From NCBI GenBank assembly GCA_040385525.1, contig JAZKHE010000004.1, forward strand, positions 35,357 through 99,356: a DNA stretch of 64,000 nucleotides. Reading direction: 5' to 3'. Under the pieces are notes generated by a model, which was not told where the DNA came from, searched no databases, and saw only the letters and a list, made by a program, of their open reading frames with translations. Within the stretch, counting starts at the first letter, position 1. Every line of letters starts with the position of its first letter. Positions 1 to 33,011 of this stretch are shown one piece after another. Both the position numbers and the translations under genes were made by a program. The DNA is from Bacteroidota bacterium. GTDB lineage: Bacteria > Bacteroidota > Bacteroidia > UBA4408.

Positions 1-1365
1 ATTTGTATAACTAGTTGTACTTTGAACAATATTTATTTCTGGAGTTAATGCAGCTGCACCAATACCTGTAATATTAAATAGATATGGATTTTCGTCAGCA
101 TCATCGCTACTTAAAGAAAGAACACCAGTAAAAGTTCCTGCAGTTGTTGGAGTAAACTCTACTGAAAACGTTAAAACATCGCCAGCTGCAACAGTAGCAG
201 GAATTGGCGCTCCGTTTACTACGTATTCTGAACCACCCGTAAATGAAGCAGTTGTTAAATTTAATGGCGCTATTCCTAAATTTTGAACAGCAAATGTTGT
301 TACAACTGTTGTAGAAGTAACTACTGTGCCAAAATTATACGTCGAATTATTTAAATAATTTGTAGCTCCGCTTATTATATTTATTTCTGGCGCCGGAACA
401 TTCCCCACACCTGTAACATTAAACAAATAAGGGTTTTCATCTGTATCATCACTTGATATAGAAAGAACTCCAGTAAAAGTTCCTGCAGATGTTGGCGTAA
501 ACTCAACTGAGAAAGTTAAAACACCACCAGCTGCTATTGTTGCAGGAATTGGAGCTCCATTAACTATATACTCTGAGCCACCAGTAAACGAAGCGGTTGT
601 TAAATTTAATGTTGCTAAACCTAAATTTTGAACTGCAAATGTTGTAACTACTGTTGTTGAAGTAACTACCGTACCAAAACTGTAAGTTGAATTGTTTAAA
701 TAATTTGTTGAACCACTAGCGATATTAATTTCTGGTGCAGAAACGGTAGATGTTGCAGAAAACTTTATGTTATCAAATCTATTATTTCCCGTTGCTGATG
801 ATGCTCCACTTACAGTTAGTTTTACATAAACATTAGCCTGATTATCTAAAGCTGTTACACTTGAAAAATCAACACTTTGAGAACTATATGTTGTAACATT
901 TCTACCGCTAATAGTTGTAAATGTTGTAAAAGTTGTACCATCTGTGCTATACGCCCAATCATGTGTTGTAAAGCCAGTTGCCGTTCCTCTAGTGTCGTAA
1001 TTTAAAATTAAGTTTTCGTAATTGGTAGTTGATAATTTAAATACAATACTTTTTCCGTTATAAGCGCTTAATACATTAACTAAAGATAAAGCACCTGTAG
1101 TTGTTGTAACACTACACAAACTTGTAGAAGGAATAACTCCGCCAAAAAAAACTTTACTTGTTGCATCAGTCCAGTTATCTGAGCCATTAGTACCATCGGC
1201 ATAAACTGTGGCTGTACTAATCATTCCACACTCACTAGTAATACTGCTAGGTGCATTTCCTGACGTTGTTGGAAATGTCCAGCCTGCTAATACATCTTGT
1301 GCCTGCGCATTATTTAAAAACACAACAGATACTGTTAGCAATAAAAATAAGTAGATTTTTTTCAT
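1..1365 (-). CDS. Partial gene (N-terminal ~455 aa; the 3' end runs past the window start). Large secreted surface protein with a signal peptide, a jelly-roll-like N-terminal domain, then tandem ~120-aa Ig-like (choice-of-anchor-D/ASH-like) repeats.
   Basis: ATG at 1363-1365 (minus) gives MKKIYLFLLLTVSVVFLNNAQA, a signal peptide. The reading frame stays open to position 1. Nucleotides 1-360 and 361-720 are ~80% identical tandem copies encoding PEINI...G...F...N.G...L beta-sandwich repeats. The N-terminal domain resembles those of the three downstream paralogs. Confidence 0.6.
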   Translation of the reverse strand, partial: MKKIYLFLLLTVSVVFLNNAQAQDVLAGWTFPTTSGNAPSSITSECGMISTATVYADGTNGSDNWTDATSKVFFGGVIPSTSLCSVTTTTGALSLVNVLSAYNGKSIVFKLSTTNYENLILNYDTRGTATGFTTHDWAYSTDGTTFTTFTTISGRNVTTYSSQSVDFSSVTALDNQANVYVKLTVSGASSATGNNRFDNIKFSATSTVSAPEINIASGSTNYLNNSTYSFGTVVTSTTVVTTFAVQNLGLATLNLTTASFTGGSEYIVNGAPIPATIAAGGVLTFSVEFTPTSAGTFTGVLSISSDDTDENPYLFNVTGVGNVPAPEINIISGATNYLNNSTYNFGTVVTSTTVVTTFAVQNLGIAPLNLTTASFTGGSEYVVNGAPIPATVAAGDVLTFSVEFTPTTAGTFTGVLSLSSDDADENPYLFNITGIGAAALTPEINIVQSTTSYTN

Positions 1366-1384: not shown

Positions 1385-4300
1385 TTATATAACTATTATT
1401 CTTTGTGATACTAATTCGTTTTTTGATTTTACTTTAACAAAGTACACTCCTTTTGCTAATTGAAGCGTATTAATGTAAATAGATTTTTGTCCTGTATACG
1501 TTTGATTAAGAACAGCTTTACCAATTTGATCAATAATACTCACCTCAACTATTTCGTTTTCATCAATTAATTGAAGGTTAACATATACATCTTTACCCAA
1601 CTCAACTGGGTTTGGAAAAATATAAATGCTATTATTTAAATCGAAGTTAACGCTACGTATGTCTGAAAAAGTAATAGCTCCATTTGCATCAACTATTTTT
1701 AATTTATAATAGTTAATACCGATTTGCGGAGAATTATCTATTGTAAAATAATCTTTACTAGCTAAAAACTTATTACTTGTTTTAACAGATTCATTTAATT
1801 CAAAACTTTCTCCATCGGTTGAAGTCCAAATTTCAAAATAATTTATTTTATTGTTGTTTGATACCGACCAAGATAAATCTACGTTAGCACCATTTTTTAC
1901 TGCTTCAAATTTATTTACTACAATTGGTAAAGGATTTAAAATACTTATTGAACCTAAAGTAAATGGACTGAAAGATGTAACAACTCCAGATGTAACTATA
2001 GTTCCTGTTGTTGTATTACCTGTTGTACCACCATTACCATGATCTCTCCACAATAAACCATCCCATCTTGCAACTAATAAATCTGCTAAAGTTGTTACTC
2101 CACAACTACGAGGTGTATCCCAACTTAAATCAACACTAACATTTGATGTTCCGTTTGTTCTATTAATTATCCAATGTTCGCAAATACTTAAGTGATCTAT
2201 TGTAATATCTTTTAAAGTATTATCGTAAGTTGGATGCGGATTAACATCAAAATATTCAGCCGTAAAATGATCGGTTACTACACCTGGCGCAGTAATACCC
2301 GCTGGGGCATAAACACTTGTTTTACCTATTGGGAAAGTAAATGCATCGTTACCAATTTTACGAACTGGACCATTTGTAAAACTTAAGTTTGAAGCACCAA
2401 CTGCTGTTGCTCCATCTCTAAAAATTAACAAATTAGTAAGTGTAGAGTTTATTAAACCTGTTGTGTAAGATGCTATTTGCTCTACTTCGGCAGTGTAATT
2501 TAAAGTTACTGCTCCACCAGTTTTATTTACGCCAATATTTGCAAACACTTCATTAAAACTATTTGTGTTTACACTTTGATTTAATGATTGTACAAAATTA
2601 ATAGTGCCATTTCCTTGTACGAAAGCCGCCTCAGAAAAATTGTTTGTCCAATTACCTTGTAAATTAATTGTTCCATCTTGTACTGATGTGCCTGCATCCA
2701 TATCTATACTTCCGTCTACAGTGTTGTTTATTGTTAAATCACCAAATATATCTAATCTGTCAGCAATATCTCCAGAATTAGTAGCTCCATTTCCAAACTC
2801 AAGCGCTTTTCCATCAATTGTTAATGTTTTACAAACGGCCATACGTACTCCCCCAACTAAATATTTATCTGAAGTAAAACTGCCTGCGCAACCAGTTAAA
2901 GCATAACCATCAACATCTATACGCGAAAAAGTTGATGCACTTGTAGGAATTACTACATCTAACAAGTTATCTGGAACAACAAGCCCCTCCCAGTTACCAC
3001 AAGTAAACCAATCTGTTTTATTTGTAGGTGCATCTCCTACCCAATAACCTGGTAAATTACCACCAGTAATTGTAAAAGTTGTACTTGAAACTGCTGCCGG
3101 GATTGAAGCAGCAACAGTTGATGTAGTCCAATTTACAACATTACCAATTGAGCCTAGCAAAGTTCTTTTAGAACCAATGTGTACTTCTGTGGTTTTATAA
3201 TAAGCAATATCTAATTGTGATAAGTTTAGGAAATTAAAACATTCCAAATCTGGATGTAATCTAGAAACACGAGTTGCACCACCTGTACCACCATTAGAAA
3301 CAGCTGTGTTAAAAGGAACCCAATCTGCTCCATTAGTTAAGCCATATAATACTTGACCATTAAGTTGAACATTATTTGTGCCTAAACCAGTGAATGTGCC
3401 TTGTACTAAATATAATTGATCGGGCTCGGAACCAGAAATGTTTGGAGGACCTCCAGTAGTAGAAAGATTAAAATTTGTTACAACATTAGCACCATCATTA
3501 ATTGAAATCACGCTTGCTCCTGTAGTAGTTGTTTCAAATCTTATAACACTTCCTGCTGGAATTGTAGAAGCTGTAGTTTTAAGCTGAATATTTAAAATAG
3601 CAGGATCAGCATCTGGATCATCACCAGGCCCTCCCCAATGCATTGTTCTTGTGCAAGCAGCTGCCCCTGTTTCAAACCTTGAGTTAACGTGAGCAAAAGA
3701 AGTTCCTGGTAAAATATCTACCATGTTCATAATATAAATTGCATCCTCAGCACTTCCATTTGTACAGTCATAACCAATATAAACTAAATCGCCTGGTCTA
3801 AATATTGTTGTAGCTATCAATACTGAACCACTTAAACTTACTGTTAAAGATGTTGCTCCAGTACTTGTTAAACCAATACTACCAGTATAAGTATTAACAC
3901 TTAAACCTGAAATTAATTGAACATAAATAGGTGTTGAAGCAACAGTACCTGAAGAAGGCGATAATGAAATAGATGATGAAAATGGACCACCAGCTGATGT
4001 GGAAATTTGATAATTTGTTGATGCAGTTAAAACTATATCTGTAGTTAAATTATATCCTGCTGCAGTAAACGATTGAACAGCAGAAGGGCCAAAACCATCT
4101 ATATAATTAAATGAAGTTAAAGATAATGGCGATGCTGATATTGAAGGTGTTGTTGAATTGCAATATACATTAACATTATCTATTCTCCAATAAGATGTAG
4201 TACTTGATACTTTTTGAAACCTAATATAAACCGTTGCAAAACCTGTGTATGCGGATAAATCAACACTACAAGGTGTTGTACCTGCAGATGTTGTGTTACT

Positions 4301-6157
4301 ATGGTCAAAAGTATTAACCGTAACAAAGCCTGCAGTTTGACTTGTTGTAGATATTTGTATATTTAAATCTTTGGCTGTTGTATTTGCTGAACGAGTTAAG
4401 TCGAATGATAAACTTGTTGGATTGGCTATTGCAATTGTTACTAATTCGCCATTATTAGCAGCCATTTCTGCATAAACGCCAGCAAAAGTTGTACTTGTTG
4501 AAACCCATCCAGCAGGAATACTTGCTGCTGAAAATGTTTCGCTTAAACAAGGCCCTGCAGAAACAGTAAGTGTAGAAGCTCCATTTGATGTAACTGAGCC
4601 GCAAGCATTAACAGCATTAACTCTATATGCATATCCACTCATTGTTAAATCTGGATTTGTTACTGTTAATACTGCCGTTGTTGCTCCAGAATAAAATCCT
4701 CCATTTGAAACTGGATTCCAACCAAAACCTGTGTTTACCTCCCAGGTGTAAGATAATAAAGAGCCGGCAGTTACTGCGCTAAAACTGGCAGAAGTTGATG
4801 GTGATGCAGTTGCTGAAACAGGTTGCGATGTAATTGTTGGTGCGACATTACCTGTACCCTGTATTACAAAATCATAGGTTCCTTCATCACTATCATCATT
4901 TGTAATAGTAAGAGTAGCAACTCTTGTACCTGAAGCTGAAGGATCGAAAGTTACACTAAATGTAGTTGTACTGCTTGCCGAAATGGTAGCAGGAAATGAA
5001 ATTCCTCCAACAGCAAAATCAGCTGCTGCTGCTCCAGTAAACGAAATGGTAGTAACATTTAACGTAGCAGCTCCCGTATTTTGTATAGTGTAAATATTTG
5101 TAATGGTGCCTGAACTTTCGCAAACAGTTGTAAAACTTGTTAAATCTGTAGATGAAGGAGTAACATCGCCATCAGCAATTGAATTACCATTACCTTGAAT
5201 GTTTATTTCGGGTTGAGTTGGAGTTACAGTTCCTGTTAAAGCAACAGTTAAAGAAGTTGCACCTGTGCTTGTTAAACCAATACTACCAGTATATGTATTT
5301 ACACTTAAGCCAGAAACTAAACGCGTAAAAATTGGCGTAGATGCTACAGTACCAGATGTATGCGTTAAGGTTAATGATGTTGAAAAAGGACCACCACTAG
5401 CGGTTGCAATTTCAAAATTTGTTGGAGCAGCTAATACAATATCGTTAGTTAAATTGCTTCCACTAGTTGTAAAAGATTGCACTCCTGACGGACCACTACC
5501 AACAACATAGGTAAAACCTGTTAAACTTGATGGAGAAGCTGTTATTGTCGGAGATGGCGCACCGCAAGTACCTTTTAAAACAATATCATCTAGCCTACAT
5601 GCTATAGTGCCAGATTTTGTAAACCTAAGTCTTAATCCATTAATTTGCGCTCCTACTGGTAATGAAATACCAGATATTAAATACCAACCCGCTGCACTTG
5701 CAGATGTAGGTAATCCAGTTAATGTTACAGGTTGATACGCACTACCATCCCAATAATGTAAAGCAAAAGTAGCAAATGCAATACCTGCTGCACCTTCTTT
5801 TCTAACAGCAAAATCAATTGTTAAACTTGTACAAGCCGAAGCATCTATTCCTTCAATTGCAAAACCATATTGTCCTGATGTTGAAACAAACCAAACATTT
5901 GCCCCACCACTTGCACCTGAATATCCTGAAGAAACGCTAGTAGCTCTTAAATCACCTGGATTTGTAGCACCTCCAGCTGTCATAGTATATGTATCATTAT
6001 CAAAACCATTTGCAGTCTCATGTGCTGCAATAGTAGTAGTCGCTCCAACAGTACCTAGGCTTTCTGTGAAAATCGTAGTCTGCCCAAAGCCATTAAAACT
6101 CAATAAAACAAAAATTGCATTGAGCAATAAAAATCGAAGTATGCCGTTGTTTTTCAT
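1385..6157 (-). CDS. Very large (~1590 aa) secreted T9SS cargo protein. N-terminal MAM/jelly-roll-like domain, internal duplicated ~110-aa Ig-like domains, choice-of-anchor-D-like domain, and a C-terminal Por/T9SS sorting domain.
   Basis: ORF 1385-6238. Likely start is the internal Met at 6157 (MKNNGILRFLLLNAIFVLLSFNGFGQ, signal peptide). C-terminus ...FPNPVELGKDVYVNL...KGVYFVKVKSKNELVSQRIIVI is a typical T9SS CTD. Repeated block TYTGSIGLTSTGATSLTV appears twice. Confidence 0.8.
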   Translation of the reverse strand: MKNNGILRFLLLNAIFVLLSFNGFGQTTIFTESLGTVGATTTIAAHETANGFDNDTYTMTAGGATNPGDLRATSVSSGYSGASGGANVWFVSTSGQYGFAIEGIDASACTSLTIDFAVRKEGAAGIAFATFALHYWDGSAYQPVTLTGLPTSASAAGWYLISGISLPVGAQINGLRLRFTKSGTIACRLDDIVLKGTCGAPSPTITASPSSLTGFTYVVGSGPSGVQSFTTSGSNLTNDIVLAAPTNFEIATASGGPFSTSLTLTHTSGTVASTPIFTRLVSGLSVNTYTGSIGLTSTGATSLTVALTGTVTPTQPEINIQGNGNSIADGDVTPSSTDLTSFTTVCESSGTITNIYTIQNTGAATLNVTTISFTGAAAADFAVGGISFPATISASSTTTFSVTFDPSASGTRVATLTITNDDSDEGTYDFVIQGTGNVAPTITSQPVSATASPSTSASFSAVTAGSLLSYTWEVNTGFGWNPVSNGGFYSGATTAVLTVTNPDLTMSGYAYRVNAVNACGSVTSNGASTLTVSAGPCLSETFSAASIPAGWVSTSTTFAGVYAEMAANNGELVTIAIANPTSLSFDLTRSANTTAKDLNIQISTTSQTAGFVTVNTFDHSNTTSAGTTPCSVDLSAYTGFATVYIRFQKVSSTTSYWRIDNVNVYCNSTTPSISASPLSLTSFNYIDGFGPSAVQSFTAAGYNLTTDIVLTASTNYQISTSAGGPFSSSISLSPSSGTVASTPIYVQLISGLSVNTYTGSIGLTSTGATSLTVSLSGSVLIATTIFRPGDLVYIGYDCTNGSAEDAIYIMNMVDILPGTSFAHVNSRFETGAAACTRTMHWGGPGDDPDADPAILNIQLKTTASTIPAGSVIRFETTTTGASVISINDGANVVTNFNLSTTGGPPNISGSEPDQLYLVQGTFTGLGTNNVQLNGQVLYGLTNGADWVPFNTAVSNGGTGGATRVSRLHPDLECFNFLNLSQLDIAYYKTTEVHIGSKRTLLGSIGNVVNWTTSTVAASIPAAVSSTTFTITGGNLPGYWVGDAPTNKTDWFTCGNWEGLVVPDNLLDVVIPTSASTFSRIDVDGYALTGCAGSFTSDKYLVGGVRMAVCKTLTIDGKALEFGNGATNSGDIADRLDIFGDLTINNTVDGSIDMDAGTSVQDGTINLQGNWTNNFSEAAFVQGNGTINFVQSLNQSVNTNSFNEVFANIGVNKTGGAVTLNYTAEVEQIASYTTGLINSTLTNLLIFRDGATAVGASNLSFTNGPVRKIGNDAFTFPIGKTSVYAPAGITAPGVVTDHFTAEYFDVNPHPTYDNTLKDITIDHLSICEHWIINRTNGTSNVSVDLSWDTPRSCGVTTLADLLVARWDGLLWRDHGNGGTTGNTTTGTIVTSGVVTSFSPFTLGSISILNPLPIVVNKFEAVKNGANVDLSWSVSNNNKINYFEIWTSTDGESFELNESVKTSNKFLASKDYFTIDNSPQIGINYYKLKIVDANGAITFSDIRSVNFDLNNSIYIFPNPVELGKDVYVNLQLIDENEIVEVSIIDQIGKAVLNQTYTGQKSIYINTLQLAKGVYFVKVKSKNELVSQRIIVI

Positions 6158-6180
6158 TGTATATTTTTTTAAAAATAATA

Positions 6181-6286
6181 ACATTAAAACATTACAGCGG
6201 TTCAGACAATTCCAAATTTTATACATTTTGGAACTCATGTAGGGTGTTCGCTTGCGTTAAAATAACCTATACAAAAGTATAGCTTA
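6181..6286 (-). promoter_or_regulatory. Conserved promoter plus ~105-nt 5' leader (copy A) upstream of the T9SS cargo gene 1385-6157. Contains a Bacteroidetes-type -33 TTG / -7 TACTTTTG and conserved hairpins.
   Basis: ~85% identical to 9080-9182, which sits upstream of paralog 6377-9058. On the coding strand: TTG, 16 nt, TAcTTTTG. The -7 box lies inside the perfect palindrome CTATAC-AAAA-GTATAG. Conserved hairpin TTCCAAA..TTTGGAA shows loop covariation. Confidence 0.55.
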
Positions 6287-6376
6287 CATTGTTTAACCAA
6301 GTTAAATTAATATTAATAATTTACAAAGTCAAGTTTTGTTGAAAACAAATAATATTTTTAAAGAAAAACACATATC

Positions 6377-9058
6377 TTATTTATTGATTATGAATGATTT
6401 AGATAATAACATTAGCTTTTTAGAATCAAACCCATTAAGATGGTAAATTCCATTTTTAAAGTTTAATAAATCTATTGTTAAATTGTTTTTACCTGTATTT
6501 ATGCTAAATTCTTTTTCATAGATTTTATTCGCTAAAACATCTGAAACAATTAGTGTAATTTGTGAACTCTCTTTACTAAAAAAATATAAATTTAAAACGT
6601 TAGTTGCAGGGTTCGGAAAAAGAACTAAATCTTCAACTAAATTAATTGCTTTGTAATGTACTGATATAAGCTCAGAATAGTTTAACTCGCCATTAAAATC
6701 TGTACTTTTTAGTCTATAATAAATAAAGCCATCACTAATTTTTTTAGGTGTTATTGAATCGGTATATTCATATTTCTTATTCGATTTTGTTTTAACTTTA
6801 AAACTTTCTATTGGTAAAAAATCGAAACCATTTAAGGAGCTTTCTAAAGTAACATAATCTGTGTTTTTGGCTTCTTCAACTTGCCAATTTATTATTACAT
6901 TGTTATTATTTTGTTGCGCATTAAAATTATTTAGTACAATTGGTAAAATAGCATCGTTACGTGTGTACCAAATTGGTGAAGTAAAAACTTTGTTTCCATC
7001 GGGTTGAGTAATAACAATGTAATAATAATAAGTTTCGCCATTTGCTATAGAGTGTGTGTAGTTAAGCGTGCTACTATTTGTATTAGCTGTTAATTGAGTT
7101 GCTAAAACACCACTACTAGGCACACCATAAAATACTGCGATTGAAGAAACTGTTTCTGCATCATTGTCGGTAACAGAAACAGAAATGGTTGGATTTCCAG
7201 AATTTGAAAAAATAGAACCTAAAACTTGTCCATTTATTGTATAATTTACTTTTAAATTCCAATCATCTGAAGCATACATACGCATACTTTTAACAGCATC
7301 TAAAACACTGTTTTGAGAGAGTTCTGTGGCTAAAATTACTAATCTACTTTGGGCAGTTCTACCAAAGGTTGTGTAATGATTATCATGATCTAAACCAGCA
7401 CCTAAGTGATAGCCTCTACTTAGTGCTTCTTTATACCTAATTTCATAACTAAAATTAGAAGGATTTGTATAAGTTGTGTTGGTTGAAAAAGCGGGCCCAC
7501 TCCTTATTGCACAACCTACAATAGCACTATCGTTTGTGGCATTATAATTTTTAAAAAACAAACTATCATAATCTGTATTTTCTGGATGAGCAAAATACGC
7601 AAAAGCTTTACCTGTAGGATAACGAGCAATTTTTTTAAACAAATCGTTGTAATTATCTATAGCGTTAAACACATCGTAGTTTCCTGCTTCCCAACCTATT
7701 AACTGATCATAACCATAAACTAAAACATGGCCTCCTTGGCTAATTACACCCCATTCCATTCCATAAAGTGCTACAAACGTCCCGTTAATTGTTGCTAACG
7801 AAGCTTCTTGTAAGCCATCAGCATAGCGTGGCAAACTCATTCCTGCACCAGAATGATTATGCTCTGAAATACCTAAAAAATCAAAGTTTTGAGAAGTTTT
7901 TGCATAATCGTAAGATTCTGCTGGGCAATCATATAGTATATTGTTTTCCTGATTTCCGTCAGAATAAGCTGTATGCGCGTGAATATTGCCAAAATAATAA
8001 TTATAATTAACAACAGCAGAAATTACTGAACCACTAGCATTTATAAATATTGTAGTAGCTCCTGCAGAATTTAATTCAATTACATCTGCATAATTTCCAA
8101 CACTTAACCCTGATACTAATCGAATATAAATAATAGTATTAGCAACACTTCCGGCTGTTTGCGTTAAAGTTAAACTGCTTACAAAACCAGTTGTAGAATT
8201 AGTAGATATTTCAAAATTTAAAGGTGCTAAAATTAGAATGTCAGTACTTAAGGTGCTACCACTAACCGTAAAAGTTTGCACAGCTGATGGTCCATTACCA
8301 ACAACGTAATTTAATGGAGTAATATTTTGTGGAGTTGCAAATATCTGAGGAGTTGGTAGTCCAAAACCAGCTGTTACAGAAACATTATCTATACCAATAC
8401 CTTGCGAACTAGAACCAGTAGTATTTAAATTCCAACGTAAATAAAAATTAGAAGAATTAGCTATGCTTAAACCTGTAATAGTTATTGCTGTTTTGTTTAT
8501 TGTAAGTTGCGGTGCAAAACTATAAGAACTTGCGCCAGTAGGAATTGAAGCAGAAGTAATATCACCTGCATTAACTGCCACCCAATTTGAACCATCTAAC
8601 GAATAATAAAACTCAACCGAAGCTATTGATGTATTTATTCTATAACGTTCTAAATCGTAGGCAATTGTAAGATCTGTTATTGCACTTGCATTATTGTTTT
8701 GATAAAAAGCCATAATGCTATTTGGACTAGCATAACTACCAGAAGTCATAATACCTAACGCTCTTTCTGTTGCAGAAGTTCCCCAGTTATATCTACCTCC
8801 AGCTGTTGGAGTTCCTGTTGATGCTTGTTGTGTAACATTAGTGAAATTGCCAGATGAAAGCCAAGTTGGAGCTACAGAACCAGCTGAACTAATTTTCCAG
8901 TTTGTTGGTAACGATGCAGTAGCGCTAGCTGCCATAGCATCAAAGTTTTCAATTACTGGTAATGTATTTATTATTGAAATTTGAGCCGAAGTAGTGGAAA
9001 AAAAGAAAACCAAAAAAACATTTAGCAAGTAAAACCGAAGATTACTGTTGATTTTCAT
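6377..9058 (-). CDS. Secreted T9SS cargo protein (~893 aa) with the shared N-terminal jelly-roll-like domain, an Ig-like domain, a PHP-type (CehA/McbA-like) metallophosphoesterase domain and a C-terminal T9SS sorting domain.
   Basis: Likely start Met at 9058 (MKINSNLRFYLLNVFLVFFFSTTSAQ). PHP motif GNIHAHTAYSDG...GISEHNH. C-terminus LFPNPATNVLNLYFF...NGIYHLNGF...FIINK. Confidence 0.75.
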   Translation of the reverse strand: MKINSNLRFYLLNVFLVFFFSTTSAQISIINTLPVIENFDAMAASATASLPTNWKISSAGSVAPTWLSSGNFTNVTQQASTGTPTAGGRYNWGTSATERALGIMTSGSYASPNSIMAFYQNNNASAITDLTIAYDLERYRINTSIASVEFYYSLDGSNWVAVNAGDITSASIPTGASSYSFAPQLTINKTAITITGLSIANSSNFYLRWNLNTTGSSSQGIGIDNVSVTAGFGLPTPQIFATPQNITPLNYVVGNGPSAVQTFTVSGSTLSTDILILAPLNFEISTNSTTGFVSSLTLTQTAGSVANTIIYIRLVSGLSVGNYADVIELNSAGATTIFINASGSVISAVVNYNYYFGNIHAHTAYSDGNQENNILYDCPAESYDYAKTSQNFDFLGISEHNHSGAGMSLPRYADGLQEASLATINGTFVALYGMEWGVISQGGHVLVYGYDQLIGWEAGNYDVFNAIDNYNDLFKKIARYPTGKAFAYFAHPENTDYDSLFFKNYNATNDSAIVGCAIRSGPAFSTNTTYTNPSNFSYEIRYKEALSRGYHLGAGLDHDNHYTTFGRTAQSRLVILATELSQNSVLDAVKSMRMYASDDWNLKVNYTINGQVLGSIFSNSGNPTISVSVTDNDAETVSSIAVFYGVPSSGVLATQLTANTNSSTLNYTHSIANGETYYYYIVITQPDGNKVFTSPIWYTRNDAILPIVLNNFNAQQNNNNVIINWQVEEAKNTDYVTLESSLNGFDFLPIESFKVKTKSNKKYEYTDSITPKKISDGFIYYRLKSTDFNGELNYSELISVHYKAINLVEDLVLFPNPATNVLNLYFFSKESSQITLIVSDVLANKIYEKEFSINTGKNNLTIDLLNFKNGIYHLNGFDSKKLMLLSKSFIINK

Positions 9059-9079
9059 TGTAGATTTAAAAAAATAATT

Positions 9080-9182
9080 TACACTAAAATATTCCAGCGG
9101 TTCAGATAATTCCAATATTTTGCATATTTGGAACTCATATAGGGTGTTCGCTTTTAATAAACTATACAAAAGTATAGCTTAG
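9080..9182 (-). promoter_or_regulatory. Conserved promoter/5' leader, copy B, paralogous to 6181-6286.
   Basis: Shares CCAGCGGTTCAGA.AATTCCAA...TTTGGAACTCAT.TAGGGTGTTCGCTT and CTATACAAAAGTATAGCTTA with copy A. The ATG of gene 6377-9058 is ~36 nt downstream, the same offset as in copy A. Confidence 0.55.
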
Positions 9183-9218
9183 ATTACCTAATCAATTTAG
9201 TATCAAGTTACTATTAAT

Positions 9219-10484
9219 TTAATATACAAGCAAACTTTTGTTGATAATTTTAGCTTCGGTTTGCACAATTGCATAGTATAAGCCAGTAGGGTAGTTTTTA
9301 TAGTTTACTAGCAAAACATCATCATTATCGGTACTTTCAACAATTTCTATTGGCATTTCTTGTCCAAACGCATTAAAAATTTTAACAATTAGTATTTCAG
9401 AATTATTAACAAGCTTTAAACTGCCAAAACCAGTTGATGGGTTTGGATAAAATTGTACAATATCGGTTTCGCTATTTATTTCTGGCTCAAAATAAACTAA
9501 TTTACTAAAAGTAAAATTACCGTTTGCATCTACTTGCTTTATTCTATAGTATTTCCCTTTAAAAGACAAATCAACCGATATCGAGTAATTGTTTGTTTTA
9601 TTACTATTTCCTGTTCCATTTATTTTTTTAATTGTTTCAAAATCTATTCCGTTGGTTGATTCTTCAACTTCAAAATACGAATTGTTTAACTCTAACGAAG
9701 TGCTCCAATTTATATCTAATACATTATTGTTTTGCACACAATCAAATGCAGAAAAAACGACTGGTAATGGTGTTAAACAAACATTATCAATATGCGCAAC
9801 AACCGAAAAATTATCAATACCCATGTGGTGATCGTTTGCAGCATCATTAACATCAGTAAAGCGCAACATAATTTCTGAATTAGCAGGAATATCAACTAGT
9901 AAACAAGAAGAAACATTACCTGATTGGCTACACGGATAACCCAATAATTGAGCGGAGTTACCACCAGTATCGCCAACGAATTGAGAAAAATTTAAACTAG
10001 AAAAATTAGTGTACGTTCCGCTTGTTAAATCAGTTATAGCTGAAGATGATACTTTGTATGAAAAAATATTTGTATTCAAATTCCCATCGTTTTCGGCCAA
10101 CGAAAACTGAAAATAATCGTAATTAATTTCTAAACTTTTAATAGTGCTCGCACTTGTATTTTTAATTCGTAAACCATAATAAATAGCGCCTGTTGTGCCC
10201 GATGGTCGAGAGCCAATTTTTTGGTCGCTACCACCACTACATCTGTACGAATAAAAACCACCCGTATTTGTTGGAGCAGTTGCTGTAATATTTAAATTAG
10301 TTACACCAAACGTTCCACCCGATTGTGAAGCGTACCAACCTGTGAACGTAGAGTTATTTGACCATGCAGAAATATTGCTTGCTCCAAAATTTTGAAGCAT
10401 TTTGTTGTTTGCTTCATTTATTAAAACTTGAGCATTTGCTGTGTTTGCAATTAATGTTATAGCTAAAAGTAAAATTTTACGCAT
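9219..10484 (-). CDS. Secreted T9SS cargo protein (421 aa) with the shared N-terminal beta-sandwich domain and a C-terminal T9SS sorting domain.
   Basis: Signal peptide MRKILLLAITLIANTANAQ. C-terminus FYPNPSTGFGSLKLV...TGLYYAIVQTEAKIINKSLLVY. Domain ends in ...HHMGIDNFSVV, like its paralogs. Confidence 0.75.
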   Translation of the reverse strand: MRKILLLAITLIANTANAQVLINEANNKMLQNFGASNISAWSNNSTFTGWYASQSGGTFGVTNLNITATAPTNTGGFYSYRCSGGSDQKIGSRPSGTTGAIYYGLRIKNTSASTIKSLEINYDYFQFSLAENDGNLNTNIFSYKVSSSAITDLTSGTYTNFSSLNFSQFVGDTGGNSAQLLGYPCSQSGNVSSCLLVDIPANSEIMLRFTDVNDAANDHHMGIDNFSVVAHIDNVCLTPLPVVFSAFDCVQNNNVLDINWSTSLELNNSYFEVEESTNGIDFETIKKINGTGNSNKTNNYSISVDLSFKGKYYRIKQVDANGNFTFSKLVYFEPEINSETDIVQFYPNPSTGFGSLKLVNNSEILIVKIFNAFGQEMPIEIVESTDNDDVLLVNYKNYPTGLYYAIVQTEAKIINKSLLVY

Positions 10485-12058: not shown

Positions 12059-12856
12059 TTACAACCTAATTCCCACAAGGGAAACATCGTCTGTTTGGTG
12101 CATATTTCCTTTCCAAGTTTCAAAAACAAATTCAAACAATTCTTTTTGCTTTCCCATAGTTTCATTACTATAATTTTGCAAAACATTTAGCAATCTTTTT
12201 CTACTAAACTTTTTAGAATTATTTTCATCAAATTGGTGTTTTACTCCATCAGAAAAAAAGTATAAACTAGTAGCTTCTTTTAGTTCAATTTTAAAAGTCT
12301 CAAACGAACGATTTTTTTCTATTTGCCAACCTCCAATAGGAAAACTATTCCCCTTAAATAAATTTATTTCATTATTCTGAATTACAGCAAATTCGCCACC
12401 AGCAGAAGCGTACTCTAACGTTTTATCTATAGTGTTATAAGCAACTAGCGTTATTTCTAACCAATCGTTATTAAAATAAGTATCGTGAGTTTCGTTATTA
12501 AAAGTTTCAATCCATTTTTTATCTAACTCTGTTAAATAATCACCAATTTTTTCAAACTTTTTTTGAATAATGTAATTCAATAAACTTATTCCCAAAACCG
12601 ACAACATAGCTGCAGAAGTACCATGCCCAGTGCAATCAGCCAAAGCAAAATAAACGATATTTTCTTTTTTTAATAACCAATAAAAATCACCGCTAATTTT
12701 GTTTTGTGGCGCGTAATACACAAAATAATCTGAGAAATGTTTTTCAAAATGTCGGCTTTTGGGAAGCAATCCATTTTGAATGGTTTGCGCATAAACAAGG
12801 CTTTGAACGTGATGTTCGTTAACTGTATTCAAATGTAGTTCTTTTATACTATTCAT
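12059..12856 (-). CDS. PP2C-family (SpoIIE/RsbU-like) serine phosphatase domain protein.
   Basis: Motif FALADCTGHGTSAAMLSV (D-x-TGHG) is characteristic of the SpoIIE/PP2C phosphatase domain. 265 aa. Confidence 0.65.
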   Translation of the reverse strand: MNSIKELHLNTVNEHHVQSLVYAQTIQNGLLPKSRHFEKHFSDYFVYYAPQNKISGDFYWLLKKENIVYFALADCTGHGTSAAMLSVLGISLLNYIIQKKFEKIGDYLTELDKKWIETFNNETHDTYFNNDWLEITLVAYNTIDKTLEYASAGGEFAVIQNNEINLFKGNSFPIGGWQIEKNRSFETFKIELKEATSLYFFSDGVKHQFDENNSKKFSRKRLLNVLQNYSNETMGKQKELFEFVFETWKGNMHQTDDVSLVGIRL

Positions 12857-18627: not shown

Positions 18628-21399
18628 ATGAAGAATAAATTTATTATTGCTGCTATTTCAATAATAGCAATTATTCCGTTTTTAATTCCAAAACAAAACG
18701 GCGTTAAACAAAAATTTGTTTTTAAAGGAAAACAAGCAATGGATGGACCATCAGAAAGATTATTGTGGGAATACAATCGTTTAGTTGATCCAGCAACAGG
18801 AAAAATACCAGCTAATATTCGCGAAAAAGAACTTGAGTTTGCAGCAACATTAAACAATAATACCAGTAATAAAACAAATGCTTTAGAACCATTATATTGG
18901 ACTAACAGAGGGCCAATTAACTTAGGCGGAAGAACTAGAGCTTTAGCTTTAGATGCAAGTTCAGAAAGTGTTATTTTAGCAGGTGCTGTTTCTGGCGGAA
19001 TGTGGAAATCTACAAATGGCGGAACAAGTTGGTATAAAACAACTTCACCTTCAGTTCAACAAAGCGTTACGTGTATTGCGCAAGATACAAGAGCTGGTAA
19101 AAGAAATATTTGGTATTATGGTTCTGGCGAAGGCTATGGCTCTTCTGCAACTGGCGATGGAGCTTTTTTTACTGGTAGTGGAATGTATAAATCTATCGAT
19201 AATGGAGAAACGTGGACATCGCTAACAGCAACAGCATCTAATACCCCTACAAATTTTGATAATATTTGGGACATAATATGGAATGTTGCTACAGATGCCT
19301 CTAACGAAACGCAAGACGAAGTTTACGCTGCAACTTATGGCGCAATTTGGAGAAGTGTAAATGGTGGAACAAATTGGGCAGCTGTTAGAGGTGGAAGTAA
19401 TGGTGATGCATATGCTACAGATGTAGCTGTTACACCTAGCGGAATAGTTTATGCTACAATTAGTAGCGATGGTGTTGGCAAAGGAATTTGGCGTTCTGTT
19501 GATGGTACAACTTGGACAAGTATTATTCCGCCAACATTCCCAACAACGTATAATAGAATTGTAATTGGTATTGATCCTAATAACGAAAACAATGTTTGGT
19601 TTTTAGGAGAAACTCCTGGTGCTGGAAAAACAACTACAAACTATCAAGGGGACCCTGAGCAAAATAGTTTATGGAAATACACCTACATTGCCGGAAACGG
19701 AAGTGGCGCAGATGGCAGCTGGACTGATTTATCAGCAAATTTACCACAAAATGGAACAGAGTTCGACAACTTTAATTCACAAGGTGGCTATGATTTATTA
19801 GTTAGAGTTAGTCCGTTTAATTCTAACCACGTAATTATTGGTGGAACAAATTTATTTTTCTCTACAGATGGTTTCGTAACAATGAACAATACAAAGCAAA
19901 TTGGTGGCTATGGAGTTGGAACAAGTATTCCTATTTTTACTTCCTATCCTAATCATCACCCTGATCAACACAATTTAATATTCTCAAAAACGAATAGCAA
20001 TGTTGTTTATTCATCGAGTGATGGTGGTGTAAATAAAACATCTAATTTATTTGACAATTCAGTTACGTGGACTACGTTGAACAACGGTTATTATTCATCA
20101 CAATTTTATACACTTGCAGTTGATCAATATACTAGTAGTGATATTATTTTAGCTGGTGCTCAAGATAACGGAACACAATTTGTAAATAGTTCTTCAAAAA
20201 ATAAACCTTGGGTAATGAGCGAAAATGGAGATGGTTCATTTTGCGCCATTGCTCGTAATGCTAAATATTTTTATACTTCGCGTCAACAAGGAATAGTTGT
20301 AAAAAGTAATATTGATATAAATACTGGGCTATTAATTTCATACACACGTATAGACCCAGACGCTGCGATTACAGCAGATTACGACTTTATTAATCCATTT
20401 ATTTTAGATGCCAATAACGATAACATAATGTATATTGCTGGAGGCAAACAAATCTTTAGATGCAGTAATTTAGCTCAGTTTACGATTGATAACACTTGGA
20501 ACAAAAAAACTACTGGCTGGGATGCATTAACGAATACTTTTGACGCAACAAGAAAAATAACTGCTTTGGCTTCGTCAAAAGGAGAAATTAAACGTTTGTA
20601 TTATGGAACAAACAACCAACGAGTTTATAAAATTGATAATCCAGAAAGCGGTAATACAACTCCTGTAAATATTACAAGTTTACAATTCCCAGCTGGGGCA
20701 ACAGTTTCGAGCATTGCTGTAGATCCAGAAAATGCGGATAGATTATTAGTTTGTTTTAGTAATTACGCTGTTTATAGTTTATTTTTAAGCGAAGATGGTG
20801 GATCAACTTTTACAAAAGTAGCAGGGAACTTAGAGCAAAATATTACAACAGGTGCTGGTAACGGACCATCATTTAGAGGCGCCACAATTTTACCTTTGCC
20901 AGATGGCACAAGAGTTTATTTTGTAGCTACAAGTATTGGTGTGTTTGCAACCGATAATTTAAGTGGAACTGCAACAATTTGGGAACAACAAAGCCCAACA
21001 CAAATAGGAAATTTAGTTTGTAGCACAATACTTAGCAGACCTACCGATGGTTTAGTTGTAGTTGGAACACATGGTAATGGAATTTATTCTACTCGCTACC
21101 CAATTGGCTTAAGTGCAAAAAATAAATCAGAAAATTCAATTAAAAAAATTGTAGTTTATCCAAATCCTGCCAGCAATTATATTAAAATATCTATTCCCGA
21201 AAATATAGTTAATACTTCAGGAAACGTTCGTATTATAAATGCAAATGGCAAATTAGTTTATAATGAAAATGAAAAGCTGAATCAAAACAAAATGATTTCT
21301 ACAAGCGATTTAAGCAATGGAAATTATTTTTTACTAATCGAAAATAAAGGAACAAAATACTCACAACAGTTTATAATCAATCACCATGAAAAAAATTAA
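18628..21399 (+). CDS. T9SS-secreted BNR/Asp-box repeat protein (sialidase/sortilin-like beta-propeller).
   Basis: Multiple SxDxGxTW Asp-box motifs (STNGGTSWY, SIDNGETWT, SVNGGTNWA, SVDGTTWT, SEDGGSTFT). C-terminal T9SS sorting domain VYPNPASNYIKISIP...NGNYFLLIENKGTKYSQQFII. Confidence 0.8.
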   Translation: MKNKFIIAAISIIAIIPFLIPKQNGVKQKFVFKGKQAMDGPSERLLWEYNRLVDPATGKIPANIREKELEFAATLNNNTSNKTNALEPLYWTNRGPINLGGRTRALALDASSESVILAGAVSGGMWKSTNGGTSWYKTTSPSVQQSVTCIAQDTRAGKRNIWYYGSGEGYGSSATGDGAFFTGSGMYKSIDNGETWTSLTATASNTPTNFDNIWDIIWNVATDASNETQDEVYAATYGAIWRSVNGGTNWAAVRGGSNGDAYATDVAVTPSGIVYATISSDGVGKGIWRSVDGTTWTSIIPPTFPTTYNRIVIGIDPNNENNVWFLGETPGAGKTTTNYQGDPEQNSLWKYTYIAGNGSGADGSWTDLSANLPQNGTEFDNFNSQGGYDLLVRVSPFNSNHVIIGGTNLFFSTDGFVTMNNTKQIGGYGVGTSIPIFTSYPNHHPDQHNLIFSKTNSNVVYSSSDGGVNKTSNLFDNSVTWTTLNNGYYSSQFYTLAVDQYTSSDIILAGAQDNGTQFVNSSSKNKPWVMSENGDGSFCAIARNAKYFYTSRQQGIVVKSNIDINTGLLISYTRIDPDAAITADYDFINPFILDANNDNIMYIAGGKQIFRCSNLAQFTIDNTWNKKTTGWDALTNTFDATRKITALASSKGEIKRLYYGTNNQRVYKIDNPESGNTTPVNITSLQFPAGATVSSIAVDPENADRLLVCFSNYAVYSLFLSEDGGSTFTKVAGNLEQNITTGAGNGPSFRGATILPLPDGTRVYFVATSIGVFATDNLSGTATIWEQQSPTQIGNLVCSTILSRPTDGLVVVGTHGNGIYSTRYPIGLSAKNKSENSIKKIVVYPNPASNYIKISIPENIVNTSGNVRIINANGKLVYNENEKLNQNKMISTSDLSNGNYFLLIENKGTKYSQQFIINHHEKN

Positions 21400-32869: not shown

Positions 32870-33011
32870 CCACTGAAACCACAATTCAGCGCTCTAACCA
32901 ACTGAGCTATTCCAATTTTGAGCTGGAAGCAGGATTCGAACCTGCGCTTTGAGGTTGCTGCTCTACCAACTGAGCTATTCGCTATTAACGAAATGGGAAT
33001 CGAACCCATGA
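32870..33011 (-). pseudogene. Cluster of degenerate tRNA-like fragments: a 5'-truncated tRNA-His(GTG)-like piece, a related 5'-truncated piece fused to an unrelated T-arm/acceptor, and an isolated T-arm+acceptor 3' piece.
   Basis: Minus-strand reads GGAATAGCTCAGTTGGTTAGAGCGCTGAATTGTGGTTTCAGTGG (D-arm plus anticodon arm, loop TTGTGGT gives GTG), GCGAATAGCTCAGTTGGTAGAGCAGCAACCTCAAAG|CGCAGGTTCGAATCCTGCTTCCAGC, and CATGGGTTCGATTCCCATTTCGTTAA. None folds into a complete cloverleaf. ORF 32848-33072 is spurious. Confidence 0.5.

What the first reader, a model, noticed from the sequence alone, without database searches (positions are those of the whole stretch)
6181..6286. Near-identical ~105-bp promoter/5' leader shared by two paralogous T9SS cargo genes
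Seen: 6181-6286 and 9080-9182 are ~85% identical while the flanking intergenic sequence is not. Both copies preserve, on the coding strand, TTG-16nt-TACTTTTG (the Bacteroidetes sigmaA -33/-7 consensus), with the -7 element buried in the perfect palindrome CTATAC-AAAA-GTATAG. Both keep a downstream hairpin (TTCCAAA...TTTGGAA) whose loop differs between copies, which is compensatory-type conservation. The ATG is at the same offset (~36-38 nt after CAGCGG). Inference: a co-regulated leader, possibly a structured 5'UTR or protein-binding site, for surface-protein expression or phase control.
Basis: partly seen in the sequence, partly recalled or inferred. Interest (0 to 1): 0.5.

Follow-up and report, generated by a model that had tools for sequence, protein, structure and literature searches.

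The report
Structured RNA leader of secreted-protein genes
Two neighbouring genes for secreted surface proteins in an uncultured Bacteroidota bacterium share a promoter followed by a small folded RNA element that also occurs, with compensating base changes, in front of similar genes in other bacteria and is absent from the RNA family catalogue, so it is probably a new regulatory RNA of unknown trigger.

Summary
On the minus strand, 6286-6185 and 9181-9085 are 85% identical. The coding DNA falls to background identity after about +60, and the proteins are only 34% identical at the N-terminus.

The shared segment has two parts:
- A Bacteroidota-type promoter, TTG-N18-TACTTTTG.
- About 10-15 nt after the predicted start, a ~60-nt RNA motif: helix P1, an almost invariant 14+10-nt internal loop, and hairpin P2.

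I found eight further distinct copies in five other uncultured organisms, one pair in tandem. All lie upstream of and co-oriented with type IX secretion (T9SS) cargo genes, and most follow a TAnnTTTG -7 box.

A covariance model built without the window's sequences finds both window copies (36 bits, E~2e-7) and nothing else in the 64 kb. Across the 10 sequences, 91.5% of pair cells are paired against 36-55% for slid controls, and 8 of 13 pairs change on both sides.

There is no Rfam 15 match and nothing in the searchable literature.

It is most likely a new cis-acting leader RNA that binds an unknown ligand or protein. No expression platform was found. The palindrome over the -7 box is not conserved, and nothing supports phase variation.

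The parts
6298..6300 (-). Copy A: -33 element TTG
   Evidence: TTG-N18-TACTTTTG, same geometry in copy B and L017 (sequence)
6272..6279 (-). Copy A: -7 box TACTTTTG (Bacteroidota sigmaA consensus TAnnTTTG). The predicted transcription start is near 6267.
   Evidence: The consensus and its -12..-5 position are taken from PMC9723704. A -7 box sits upstream of the motif in 7 of 9 leaders.
6267..6282 (-). Copy A: palindrome CTATAC-TTTT-GTATAG overlapping the -7 box. It is specific to this lineage and probably incidental.
   Evidence: broken in L017
6191..6255 (-). Copy A: structured RNA motif. P1 is 6252-6249 paired with 6199-6196. Loop strand J1 (AACACCCUACAUGA) is 6248-6235. P2 is 6234-6227 paired with 6216-6209, with its loop at 6226-6217. 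Loop strand J2 (UGUCUGAAC) is 6208-6200.
   Evidence: Model R1, built without window sequences: 36.2 bits, E=1.8e-7. Model R2: 71.8 bits. Pair counts.
6158..6190 (-). Copy A: A/U-rich spacer of 33 nt between the motif and the start codon
   Evidence: The spacer is 30-35 nt in 5 of 9 leaders.
1385..6157 (-). Gene A: 1590-aa T9SS cargo protein with a signal peptide, Ig-like domains and the PF18962 sorting domain. The next gene starts 19 nt after its stop codon.
9193..9195 (-). Copy B: -33 element TTG
9167..9174 (-). Copy B: -7 box TACTTTTG. The predicted transcription start is near 9162. The palindrome spans 9177-9162.
9091..9155 (-). Copy B: structured RNA motif. P1 is 9152-9149 paired with 9099-9096. 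J1 is 9148-9135. The P2 hairpin is 9134-9109. J2 (UAUCUGAAC) is 9108-9100.
   Evidence: Model R1: 35.9 bits, E=2.3e-7. Model R2: 71.1 bits.
9059..9090 (-). Copy B: A/U-rich spacer of 32 nt to the start codon
6377..9058 (-). Gene B: 893-aa T9SS cargo protein. It has an N-terminal module shared with A, a central part whose homologs sources name CehA/McbA metallohydrolase, and the PF18962 sorting domain.

Best explanation
The shared segment is a transcription and leader module with two parts.

1. A Bacteroidota sigmaA-type promoter, TTG-N18-TACTTTTG.
2. Starting about 10-15 nt into the predicted transcript, a ~60-nt structured RNA. It consists of a 4-6-bp closing helix P1, an asymmetric internal loop of nearly invariant sequence, and a variable hairpin P2. 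The loop strands are J1 (A-A-Y-A-C-C-C-U-A-Y-A-W-G-A) and J2 (W-K-U-C-Y-G-A-A-(R)-C).

This RNA belongs to a family not catalogued in Rfam that sits in the 5' UTRs of a subset of T9SS cargo genes in several uncultured Bacteroidota.

Inferred mechanism: the folded leader acts in cis on its own mRNA. Its conserved internal loop is the docking site for a trans-acting factor, either a small ligand or an RNA-binding protein. Occupancy would change translation initiation or mRNA lifetime of the downstream secreted protein. The motif ends ~30-35 nt before the AUG in five of nine leaders, in a phylum that initiates without Shine-Dalgarno pairing. Genes A (plus the gene directly behind it) and B would then be co-regulated.

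What is shown: the two copies, the local conservation, family membership, the covarying helices, the strand, and the gene association.

What is inferred: the transcription start, the binding partner, and the direction and level of control.
For: Local conservation: identity is 83-92% in the promoter and motif, against background (53-61%) in coding DNA beyond +60. Proteins A and B are 34% identical at the N-terminus.

Other members:
- L017.
- L018, three copies, two of them in tandem 9 nt apart.
- L023/L026, L024 and L028. These came from a metagenome scan whose pattern specified only the 5' half, so their complementary 3' halves are an independent test.
- L031.

Model searches:
- Model R1, built from the 7 non-window sequences, finds window 6191-6255 (36.2 bits, E=1.8e-7), window 9091-9155 (35.9 bits) and L017 (31 bits).
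- A later filter-free search of the whole window with model R2, built from all ten sequences, gives no third hit better than 13.1 bits.
- 72 chance pattern matches in 569 kb of viral contigs give nothing above 16 bits.

Structure:
- 91.5% of pair cells are standard pairs, against 36-55% when partners are slid by 1-3 columns.
- 8 of 13 pairs change on both sides (19 cells), and 0 of 500 shuffles reach the observed values.
- RNAalifold independently returns the same P1 and P2, with 7 of 11 pairs compensatory.
- Eight G-U cells pair only on the sense strand.

Context:
- All copies are co-oriented with a downstream gene that has a signal peptide.
- These downstream genes carry the PF18962 T9SS sorting domain, except the L031 gene (no domain on record) and the L028 gene. 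The L028 gene has SprB repeats and runs off its locus before the C-terminus.
- A TAnnTTTG box ends 4-26 nt upstream of the motif in 7 of 9 leaders, against 0.84 per kb per strand in the window.

No Rfam 15 family matches at E<=10 in the window or in L018.
Against: - There are only 10 distinct sequences from about six organisms, three of them closely related (A, B, L017). The pair counts were made on a model-fitted alignment.
- Single-sequence folding is not more stable than shuffles (z from +0.3 to -1.5), and P1 is weak.
- No consistent terminator, start-codon sequestering helix or anti-P1 element was found. Duplex z-scores range from -2.3 to +0.7.
- The motif-to-ATG distance is 57-264 nt in four leaders.
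- Many homologous genes lack the motif (L030, L032, L105-L108), as do other T9SS cargo genes in the window.
- No transcript data are available.
- The downstream genes are not metabolic, so they give no clue to a ligand.
Confidence: 0.75

Rival explanations
1. The motif is specifically a riboswitch. The internal loop would bind a small molecule, for example a signalling nucleotide, and switch expression of surface and secreted proteins. This is a sub-case of the best explanation.
For: - The architecture is aptamer-like: covarying helices around near-invariant unpaired nucleotides.
- A tandem pair lies upstream of P0070 in L018. From general knowledge, tandem arrangement is known for some riboswitch classes.
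- In L026/L024 a 9-bp hairpin overlaps the P1 3' strand, and in L031 a small hairpin followed by a U-run does the same. Both would make P1 mutually exclusive with another fold.
Against: - No conserved expression platform exists across members.
- The regulated genes are adhesin-like or exoenzyme cargo, not enzymes or transporters of a candidate ligand.
- The motif is small and no ligand can be tested here.
Confidence: 0.22
2. The motif is a protein-binding or purely structural 5' element: a docking site for an RNA-binding regulator or RNase, or a 5'-proximal fold that protects the mRNA from decay.
For: - The motif begins within ~1-25 nt of the predicted transcript start in all leaders that have a -7 box, which is the usual place for stabilising 5' structures.
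- It lacks an expression platform.
- It is associated with a functional class of proteins, T9SS cargo, rather than with a pathway.
Against: A pure stabiliser would not need 24 nearly invariant unpaired nucleotides. No candidate binding protein is conserved next to the loci.
Confidence: 0.4
3. The similarity is only a by-product of duplication or gene conversion between paralogs A and B and has no function of its own.
For: - A and B are adjacent paralogs.
- The relative L017 has a single mosaic gene (N-terminus 66% identical to B, C-terminus 49% to A), which shows recombination in this gene family.
- The first 60 nt of coding sequence are also somewhat conserved, at 72%.
Against: - The same motif, with different helix sequences but the same loops, occurs in unrelated contexts in other organisms with 37-47% GC.
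- A model trained only on those organisms detects the window copies.
- Coding DNA beyond +60 is at background identity.
Confidence: 0.04
4. The conserved blocks are DNA operators: palindromes bound by a dimeric transcription factor, or an ECF-sigma promoter (GAAC...GT) close to the ATG. In this reading there is no RNA structure.
For: - The window has two palindromes, CTATAC-N4-GTATAG over the -7 box and TTCCAA-N12-TTGGAA.
- J2 contains GAAC or GAAAC, which resembles an ECF -35 element (my reading).
Against: - The arm sequences of the second palindrome change between organisms while complementarity is kept. G-U pairs appear, which are mismatches at the DNA level.
- The first palindrome is broken in L017.
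- No CGT-type -10 element lies at a fixed 16-17 nt after GAAAC in L018, L028 or L031 (inspection).
Confidence: 0.06
5. The element is part of a phase-variable (invertible or slipped-strand) promoter for surface-protein switching.
For: No tool result supports it.
Against: - No inverted repeats shared by the two copies flank the promoter. Only AT-rich, imperfect, low-complexity pairs are present.
- No recombinase gene was recognised among the flanking genes that were annotated.
- The same-strain contig L016 has the same orientation.
Confidence: 0.02

Closest known systems
Orphan riboswitch candidates and cis-regulatory RNA motifs found by comparative genomics (the CMfinder/Breaker-Weinberg type). 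c-di-GMP-I (GEMM) leaders upstream of adhesin and motility genes are the nearest functional analogy.
   Same: It lies in a 5' UTR on the sense strand. Its helices covary around highly conserved unpaired nucleotides. It occasionally occurs in tandem. It is associated with surface or secreted proteins.
   Different: No Rfam 15 family matches. The fold is much smaller and simpler, with two helices and one internal loop. No ligand is known and no recognisable expression platform exists. It is so far restricted to a few uncultured Bacteroidota.
Bacteroidota sigmaA promoter (-33 TTG / -7 TAnnTTTG)
   Same: The window copies have TTG-N18-TACTTTTG. Most other members have TAnnTTTG just upstream of the motif. 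The consensus and its position are as cited in PMC9723704.
   Different: This explains only the upstream third of the shared segment. The start site is not mapped. L026 and L024 have only a one-mismatch box (TAACATTG).
Flavo-1 and other Bacteroidota RNA motifs in Rfam
   Same: They are small conserved structured RNAs found in Bacteroidota intergenic regions.
   Different: cmscan at E<=10 gives no overlap with any of them. According to PMC9723704, Flavo-1 has no consistent orientation relative to transcripts. This motif is always sense and upstream of a gene.
Protein-binding mRNA leaders (ribosomal-protein leaders, leader hairpins recognised by NusG paralogs of the LoaP/UpxY type) and 5' stabiliser stem-loops (ompA type)
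   Same: It is a 5'-proximal structured element in front of long surface-protein genes, it has a conserved loop that could be a protein site, and it has no terminator.
   Different: No cognate protein is identified. The motif also precedes short genes of 305 and 328 aa. The comparison rests on general knowledge and was not tested here.

Membership tests
Any Rfam 15 RNA family | Covariance-model match at or near the family's gathering score | tested here: not met
   At gathering thresholds the window gives only tRNA hits. At E<=10, window 5900-9500 and L018 9300-15000 give no hit overlapping any copy.
New leader motif family (this report) | Detected by a covariance model that was not trained on the window's own sequences | tested here: met
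   R1 was built from 7 sequences of other organisms. It scores window 6191-6255 at 36.2 bits (E=1.8e-7) and 9091-9155 at 35.9 bits (E=2.3e-7). The negative control of 569 kb reached at most 16 bits.
New leader motif family (this report) | Helices supported by compensatory changes | tested here: met
   91.5% of cells are paired against 36-55% for slid partners. 8 of 13 pairs change on both sides, and 0 of 500 shuffles reach the observed values. RNAalifold returns the same helices. Caveat: only 10 sequences, and the alignment was fitted to the model.
New leader motif family (this report) | Located in the 5' UTR, sense to a T9SS cargo gene | tested here: met
   All 10 copies are co-oriented with and upstream of genes that have signal peptides. 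These genes carry PF18962 or, for L028, SprB repeats; the L031 gene has no domain on record. UTR status is inferred from -7 boxes and not from transcripts.
Bacteroidota sigmaA promoter | -7 box TAnnTTTG with a -33 TTG about 18 nt upstream | tested here: met
   TTG-N18-TACTTTTG is present in A, B and L017. A TAnnTTTG box is present in 7 of 9 leaders, against a background of 0.84 per kb per strand.
Bacteroidota sigmaA promoter | Mapped transcription start about 5-7 nt downstream of the box | not testable with these tools
   No transcriptome data are available for this MAG.
Riboswitch | Conserved aptamer-like core with covarying helices | tested here: met
   The J1 and J2 loop columns are almost invariant in alignment A7.
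Riboswitch | Expression platform: a terminator or start-site sequestering helix mutually exclusive with the aptamer | tested here: inconclusive
   Suggestive overlaps with P1 exist in L026/L024 and L031. No consistent element is found across members, with duplex z-scores from -2.3 to +0.7 (folds).
Riboswitch | Specific binding of a small-molecule ligand | not testable with these tools
   This requires in-line probing, ITC or similar.
Leader-peptide attenuator | Conserved short upstream ORF | tested here: not met
   The AUG in J1 exists only in the window lineage (AUGA). Other members have AAGA or AGGA at that position.
Invertible (phase-variable) promoter | Promoter flanked by inverted repeats, with a nearby recombinase | tested here: not met
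   Only AT-rich imperfect repeats are present and none is shared by the two copies. No recombinase was recognised among the annotated neighbours.
ECF-sigma promoter | A -35 GAAC element and a -10 CGT-type element at fixed spacing, conserved across members | tested here: not met
   GAAC or GAAAC lies within J2, but no -10 element sits at 16-17 nt in L018, L028 or L031 (inspection). Covariation shows that the region is read as RNA.

The most novel reading that the evidence does not exclude
The motif is a new riboswitch class, sometimes in tandem. It would sense an intracellular signal, for example a signalling nucleotide, and thereby set the output of a subset of type IX secretion cargo (adhesin-like and exoenzyme proteins) in Bacteroidota. 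That would make it the first RNA-level regulator tied to T9SS cargo.
Probability: 0.2. Interest if true: 0.8.

Novelty: new member of a known kind. Interest (0 to 1): 0.6.

Why it matters
Bacteroidota lack Shine-Dalgarno-based initiation, and mRNA secondary structure is known to tune their translation initiation (PMC6847099, abstract seen). From general knowledge, their post-transcriptional control is poorly charted.

The literature searched here describes T9SS regulation only at the transcriptional level, through sigma factors acting on machinery genes. I found nothing on how individual cargo genes are controlled.

A conserved, covarying leader RNA specific to a subset of cargo genes gives a concrete handle that can be synthesised: about 60 nt with 24 near-invariant loop nucleotides. 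It could be used to find the factor that controls secreted adhesins and enzymes in these bacteria. It would also add a family to the RNA catalogue.

If the motif turns out to be only a stabilising fold, it is still a useful annotation marker for transcription units in uncultured Bacteroidota.

Tried and rejected
Collection scans:
- A genome-contig scan with GCGAACACCC-N25-45-CTGAACCGCTG gave 15 hits, all in high-GC or unrelated taxa, so all are chance.
- Viral-contig scans with three patterns gave either nothing or 72 chance hits with no model support. They served as a negative control.
- The metagenome hits L027 and L029 lie in coding sequence, judged from third-position differences between the two contigs. 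L025 lies inside an anthranilate synthase gene. All three were rejected.
- A plasmid collection search found nothing.

Contig look-ups:
- Exact-protein look-ups of B failed with three different starts. The Logan contig L016 is the same strain and adds no evolutionary information.
- Homologs of B's N-terminal module in L030, L032, L105-L107, and a homolog of B's C-terminal part in L108, have no motif.

Structure and signals:
- Single-sequence folding energies are unremarkable.
- The sigma-70 promoter and terminator scan is uninformative for this phylum.
- A search for an anti-P1 or expression-platform helix gave no consistent signal.

Readings considered and rejected:
- A leader peptide, because the AUG in J1 is not conserved.
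- An ECF promoter.
- A sigma-54 promoter, because by my reading the GG/GC spacing is absent.
- An invertible promoter.

Six literature searches found no description of the motif.

Full report
**Observation**

The two genes are on the minus strand.
- Gene A (1385-6157, 1590 aa) and gene B (6377-9058, 893 aa) both start with a typical signal peptide and end with the T9SS sorting domain PF18962.
- Upstream of each ATG lies a shared block. blastn gives 85.4% identity over 103 nt, 6286-6185 against 9181-9085.
- Three long sub-blocks occur exactly twice in the 64 kb, where shuffles predict none.

The identity profile was measured relative to the ATGs:

| Region | Identity |
|---|---|
| upstream of -160 | 61% |
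| promoter block (-130..-100) | 92% |
| -99..-34 | 83% |
| last 33 nt before the ATG | 73.5% |
| first 60 nt of coding sequence | 72% |
| beyond +60 | 53-61% |
| random 66-nt pairs from the window | 58 +/- 5% |

The proteins are only 34% identical over their N-terminal ~350 residues. So the similarity is local.

One correction: TTG and TACTTTTG are 18 nt apart, not 16.

**The conserved core is not confined to this genome**

Source and close relatives:
- The source is an NCBI MAG labelled only "Bacteroidota bacterium". Its nearest relatives for a housekeeping enzyme are 77% identical and equally unnamed.
- A Logan contig, L016, is the same strain.
- A syntenic relative, L017, has a single mosaic gene, P0066, in place of B plus A. 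It carries one copy of the leader.

More distant members:
- L018-L022 come from a more distant organism. It has two copies in tandem upstream of P0070, a lamin-tail-domain (LTD) protein with a T9SS sorting domain. A third copy lies upstream of a 305-aa LTD protein that also has the sorting domain.
- From these I wrote a pattern covering only the 5' half of the element and scanned the JGI metagenomes. That returned three further genuine members: L023/L026, L024 and L028. It also returned three chance hits inside coding sequence.
- L031, found through a protein homolog, carries another member.

In total there are 10 distinct sequences from about six organisms with 31-47% GC.

**Anatomy (alignment A7)**

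- P1 is a closing helix of 4-6 bp. Examples are AGCG/CGCU, AAAGUG/CACUUU and GAGGCG/CGCCUC.
- J1 is a 14-nt strand, A-A-Y-A-C-C-C-U-A-Y-A-W-G-A.
- P2 is a hairpin of 7-11 bp whose sequence differs between organisms. Examples are GUUCCAAA/UUUGGAAU, GUCCCGA/UCGGGAU, UCACGA/UCGUGA, GUUUCUGUU/AACAGAAAC and AUUUCGA/UCGAAAU.
- J2 is a 9-10-nt strand, W-K-U-C-Y-G-A-A-(R)-C.

**Tests of the structure and of membership**

- A covariance model (R1) was built from the seven sequences that are not from the window or L017. It finds window 6191-6255 at 36.2 bits (E=1.8e-7), window 9091-9155 at 35.9 bits (E=2.3e-7) and L017 at 31 bits.
- A filter-free search of the whole window with the 10-sequence model (R2) gives no third copy. 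The next hit scores 13 bits.
- As a negative control, 72 viral contigs chosen because they match a relaxed sequence pattern gave nothing above 16 bits in 569 kb.
- On the 10 sequences, 91.5% of pair cells are standard pairs, against 36-55% when the 3' partners are slid by 1-3 columns.
- 8 of 13 pairs have changes on both sides (19 cells), and none of 500 column shuffles reaches the observed values.
- RNAalifold predicts the same two helices on its own.
- For the metagenome-derived members the 3' strands were not part of the search pattern, so their complementarity is an unbiased confirmation.
- Eight cells are G-U pairs, which work only on the sense strand.
- All copies are co-oriented with the downstream gene.

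Caveats: ten sequences is a small set, three of them are close relatives, and the alignment was fitted to the model.

**Context**

Downstream genes:
- All encode proteins with signal peptides.
- The T9SS sorting domain is detected in A, B, P0066, P0070, the 305-aa LTD protein and the 328-aa protein of L026.
- The L028 gene has SprB repeats and an Ig-like domain that Pfam describes as associated with the CHU_C T9SS signal domain. It runs off its locus before the C-terminus.
- The L031 gene is homologous to B's N-terminal module, and no domain is on record for it.

Promoter:
- In 7 of 9 leaders a TAnnTTTG box ends 4-26 nt upstream of the motif. The window carries this octamer at 0.84 per kb per strand.
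- In A, B and L017 it is preceded by TTG at exactly 18 nt.
- The consensus and its -12..-5 position are those given for flavobacterial sigmaA promoters in PMC9723704.
- The motif therefore sits at the very 5' end of the predicted mRNA.

Spacing and distribution:
- The motif ends 30-35 nt before the AUG in five leaders, and 57, 105, 250 and 264 nt before it in the others.
- The gene behind A starts 19 nt after A's stop codon, so it is probably co-transcribed with A.
- Other T9SS cargo genes in the window, at 9219-10484 and 18628-21399, lack the motif. So do several homologs elsewhere.
- The motif therefore marks a subset of cargo genes, not all.

**What does not hold up**

- The perfect palindrome CTATAC-TTTT-GTATAG around the -7 box is intact only in the window's two copies. 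L017 keeps the -7 box but reads GCGTAG.
- No inverted repeats common to the two copies flank the promoter, so nothing supports inversion-type phase variation.
- The AUG inside J1 is specific to this lineage, which rules out a leader peptide.
- GAAC or GAAAC in J2 is not followed by a conserved -10 element, which rules out an ECF promoter.

**Mechanism**

The pattern is helices that covary around 24 almost invariant unpaired nucleotides. That is the signature of an RNA recognised by something, either a small ligand or a protein.

I could not find a shared expression platform:
- There is no consistent terminator.
- No helix sequesters the start region.
- No significant anti-P1 partner exists.
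- Local hints exist. In L026/L024 a 9-bp hairpin overlaps the 3' strand of P1, and in L031 a small hairpin followed by a U-run does the same.

[quoted passage not shown] Combined with the 30-35-nt spacing, the most likely level of action is translation initiation or mRNA stability. This step is inference.

My estimates for the sub-hypotheses are about 0.4 for a protein-binding or stabilising leader and about 0.2 for a small-molecule riboswitch.

**Comparison with what is known**

- No Rfam 15 family matches at permissive thresholds, in the window or in L018.
- Six full-text literature searches found no description of a leader RNA tied to T9SS cargo genes.
- The element resembles the orphan cis-regulatory RNA motifs found by comparative genomics, and I file it as a new family of that known kind.
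- The promoter part is an ordinary Bacteroidota sigmaA promoter.

**Verdict**

The palindrome and phase-variation ideas are not supported. Interest is moderate to high. The motif is probably new and gives a testable entry point to the control of T9SS cargo. However, the sample is small, the distribution is apparently narrow, and the function is unknown.

Noticed in passing
window 32921-32982 (-): Rfam reports a tRNA match (35.3 bits, above the gathering score) that lacks the anticodon arm. ARAGORN does not call it. It may be a truncated tRNA remnant, for example an old integration site.
   Followed up: partly
window 1-1365 (-) and L016 9351-14273: A ~1640-aa protein with an Ig-repeat (HYDIN/VesB-like) domain and the T9SS sorting domain starts 19 nt after gene A's stop codon. 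It has no leader of its own, so it is probably in an operon with A under the same leader.
   Followed up: partly
L017 5718-10034, compared with window 1385-9058: The syntenic relative has one mosaic gene (P0066) where the window has B plus A. Its N-terminal 345 aa are 66% identical to B, and its C-terminal 870 aa are 49% identical to A. This is domain shuffling, and the leader travels with the N-terminal module.
   Followed up: yes
window 6098-6157 and 8999-9058 (-); L018 10001-10040: The first ~60 nt of coding sequence of A and B are 72% identical at the DNA level. The signal peptides of A, B, P0066 and P0070 share an (L/F)RF tripeptide. Its codons (CGGUU, GUUUCG) are complementary to J2/P1' of the motif (AACCG, CGAAAC). 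A long-range pairing is possible, but it is absent in L028 and L031.
   Followed up: partly
L018 9845-9969: Two motif copies lie in tandem, 9 nt apart, upstream of one gene, P0070 (an LTD protein with a T9SS sorting domain). The neighbourhood also holds a second LTD gene with the motif, a TonB-dependent receptor and a T9SS-sorted Endonuclease_1 protein. This hints at an extracellular nucleic-acid or phosphate-scavenging locus.
   Followed up: partly
L026 6444-6490, L024 3601-3646 and L031 82-103: Hairpins overlap the 3' strand of P1. In L026/L024 the arms are GCUUCAAGC...GCUUGAAGC. In L031 the hairpin is AACCG-CUC-CGGUU followed by U6. These could be lineage-specific switch elements.
   Followed up: partly
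window 9219-10484 (-) and 18628-21399 (+): Two further genes with the T9SS sorting domain in the window have no copy of the leader, so the motif marks only a subset of cargo genes.
   Followed up: yes
window 12059-12856 (-): A stand-alone SpoIIE/PP2C-type phosphatase with weak similarity to SiaA lies three genes upstream of B, and this arrangement is conserved in L017. There is no evidence linking it to the leader.
   Followed up: no
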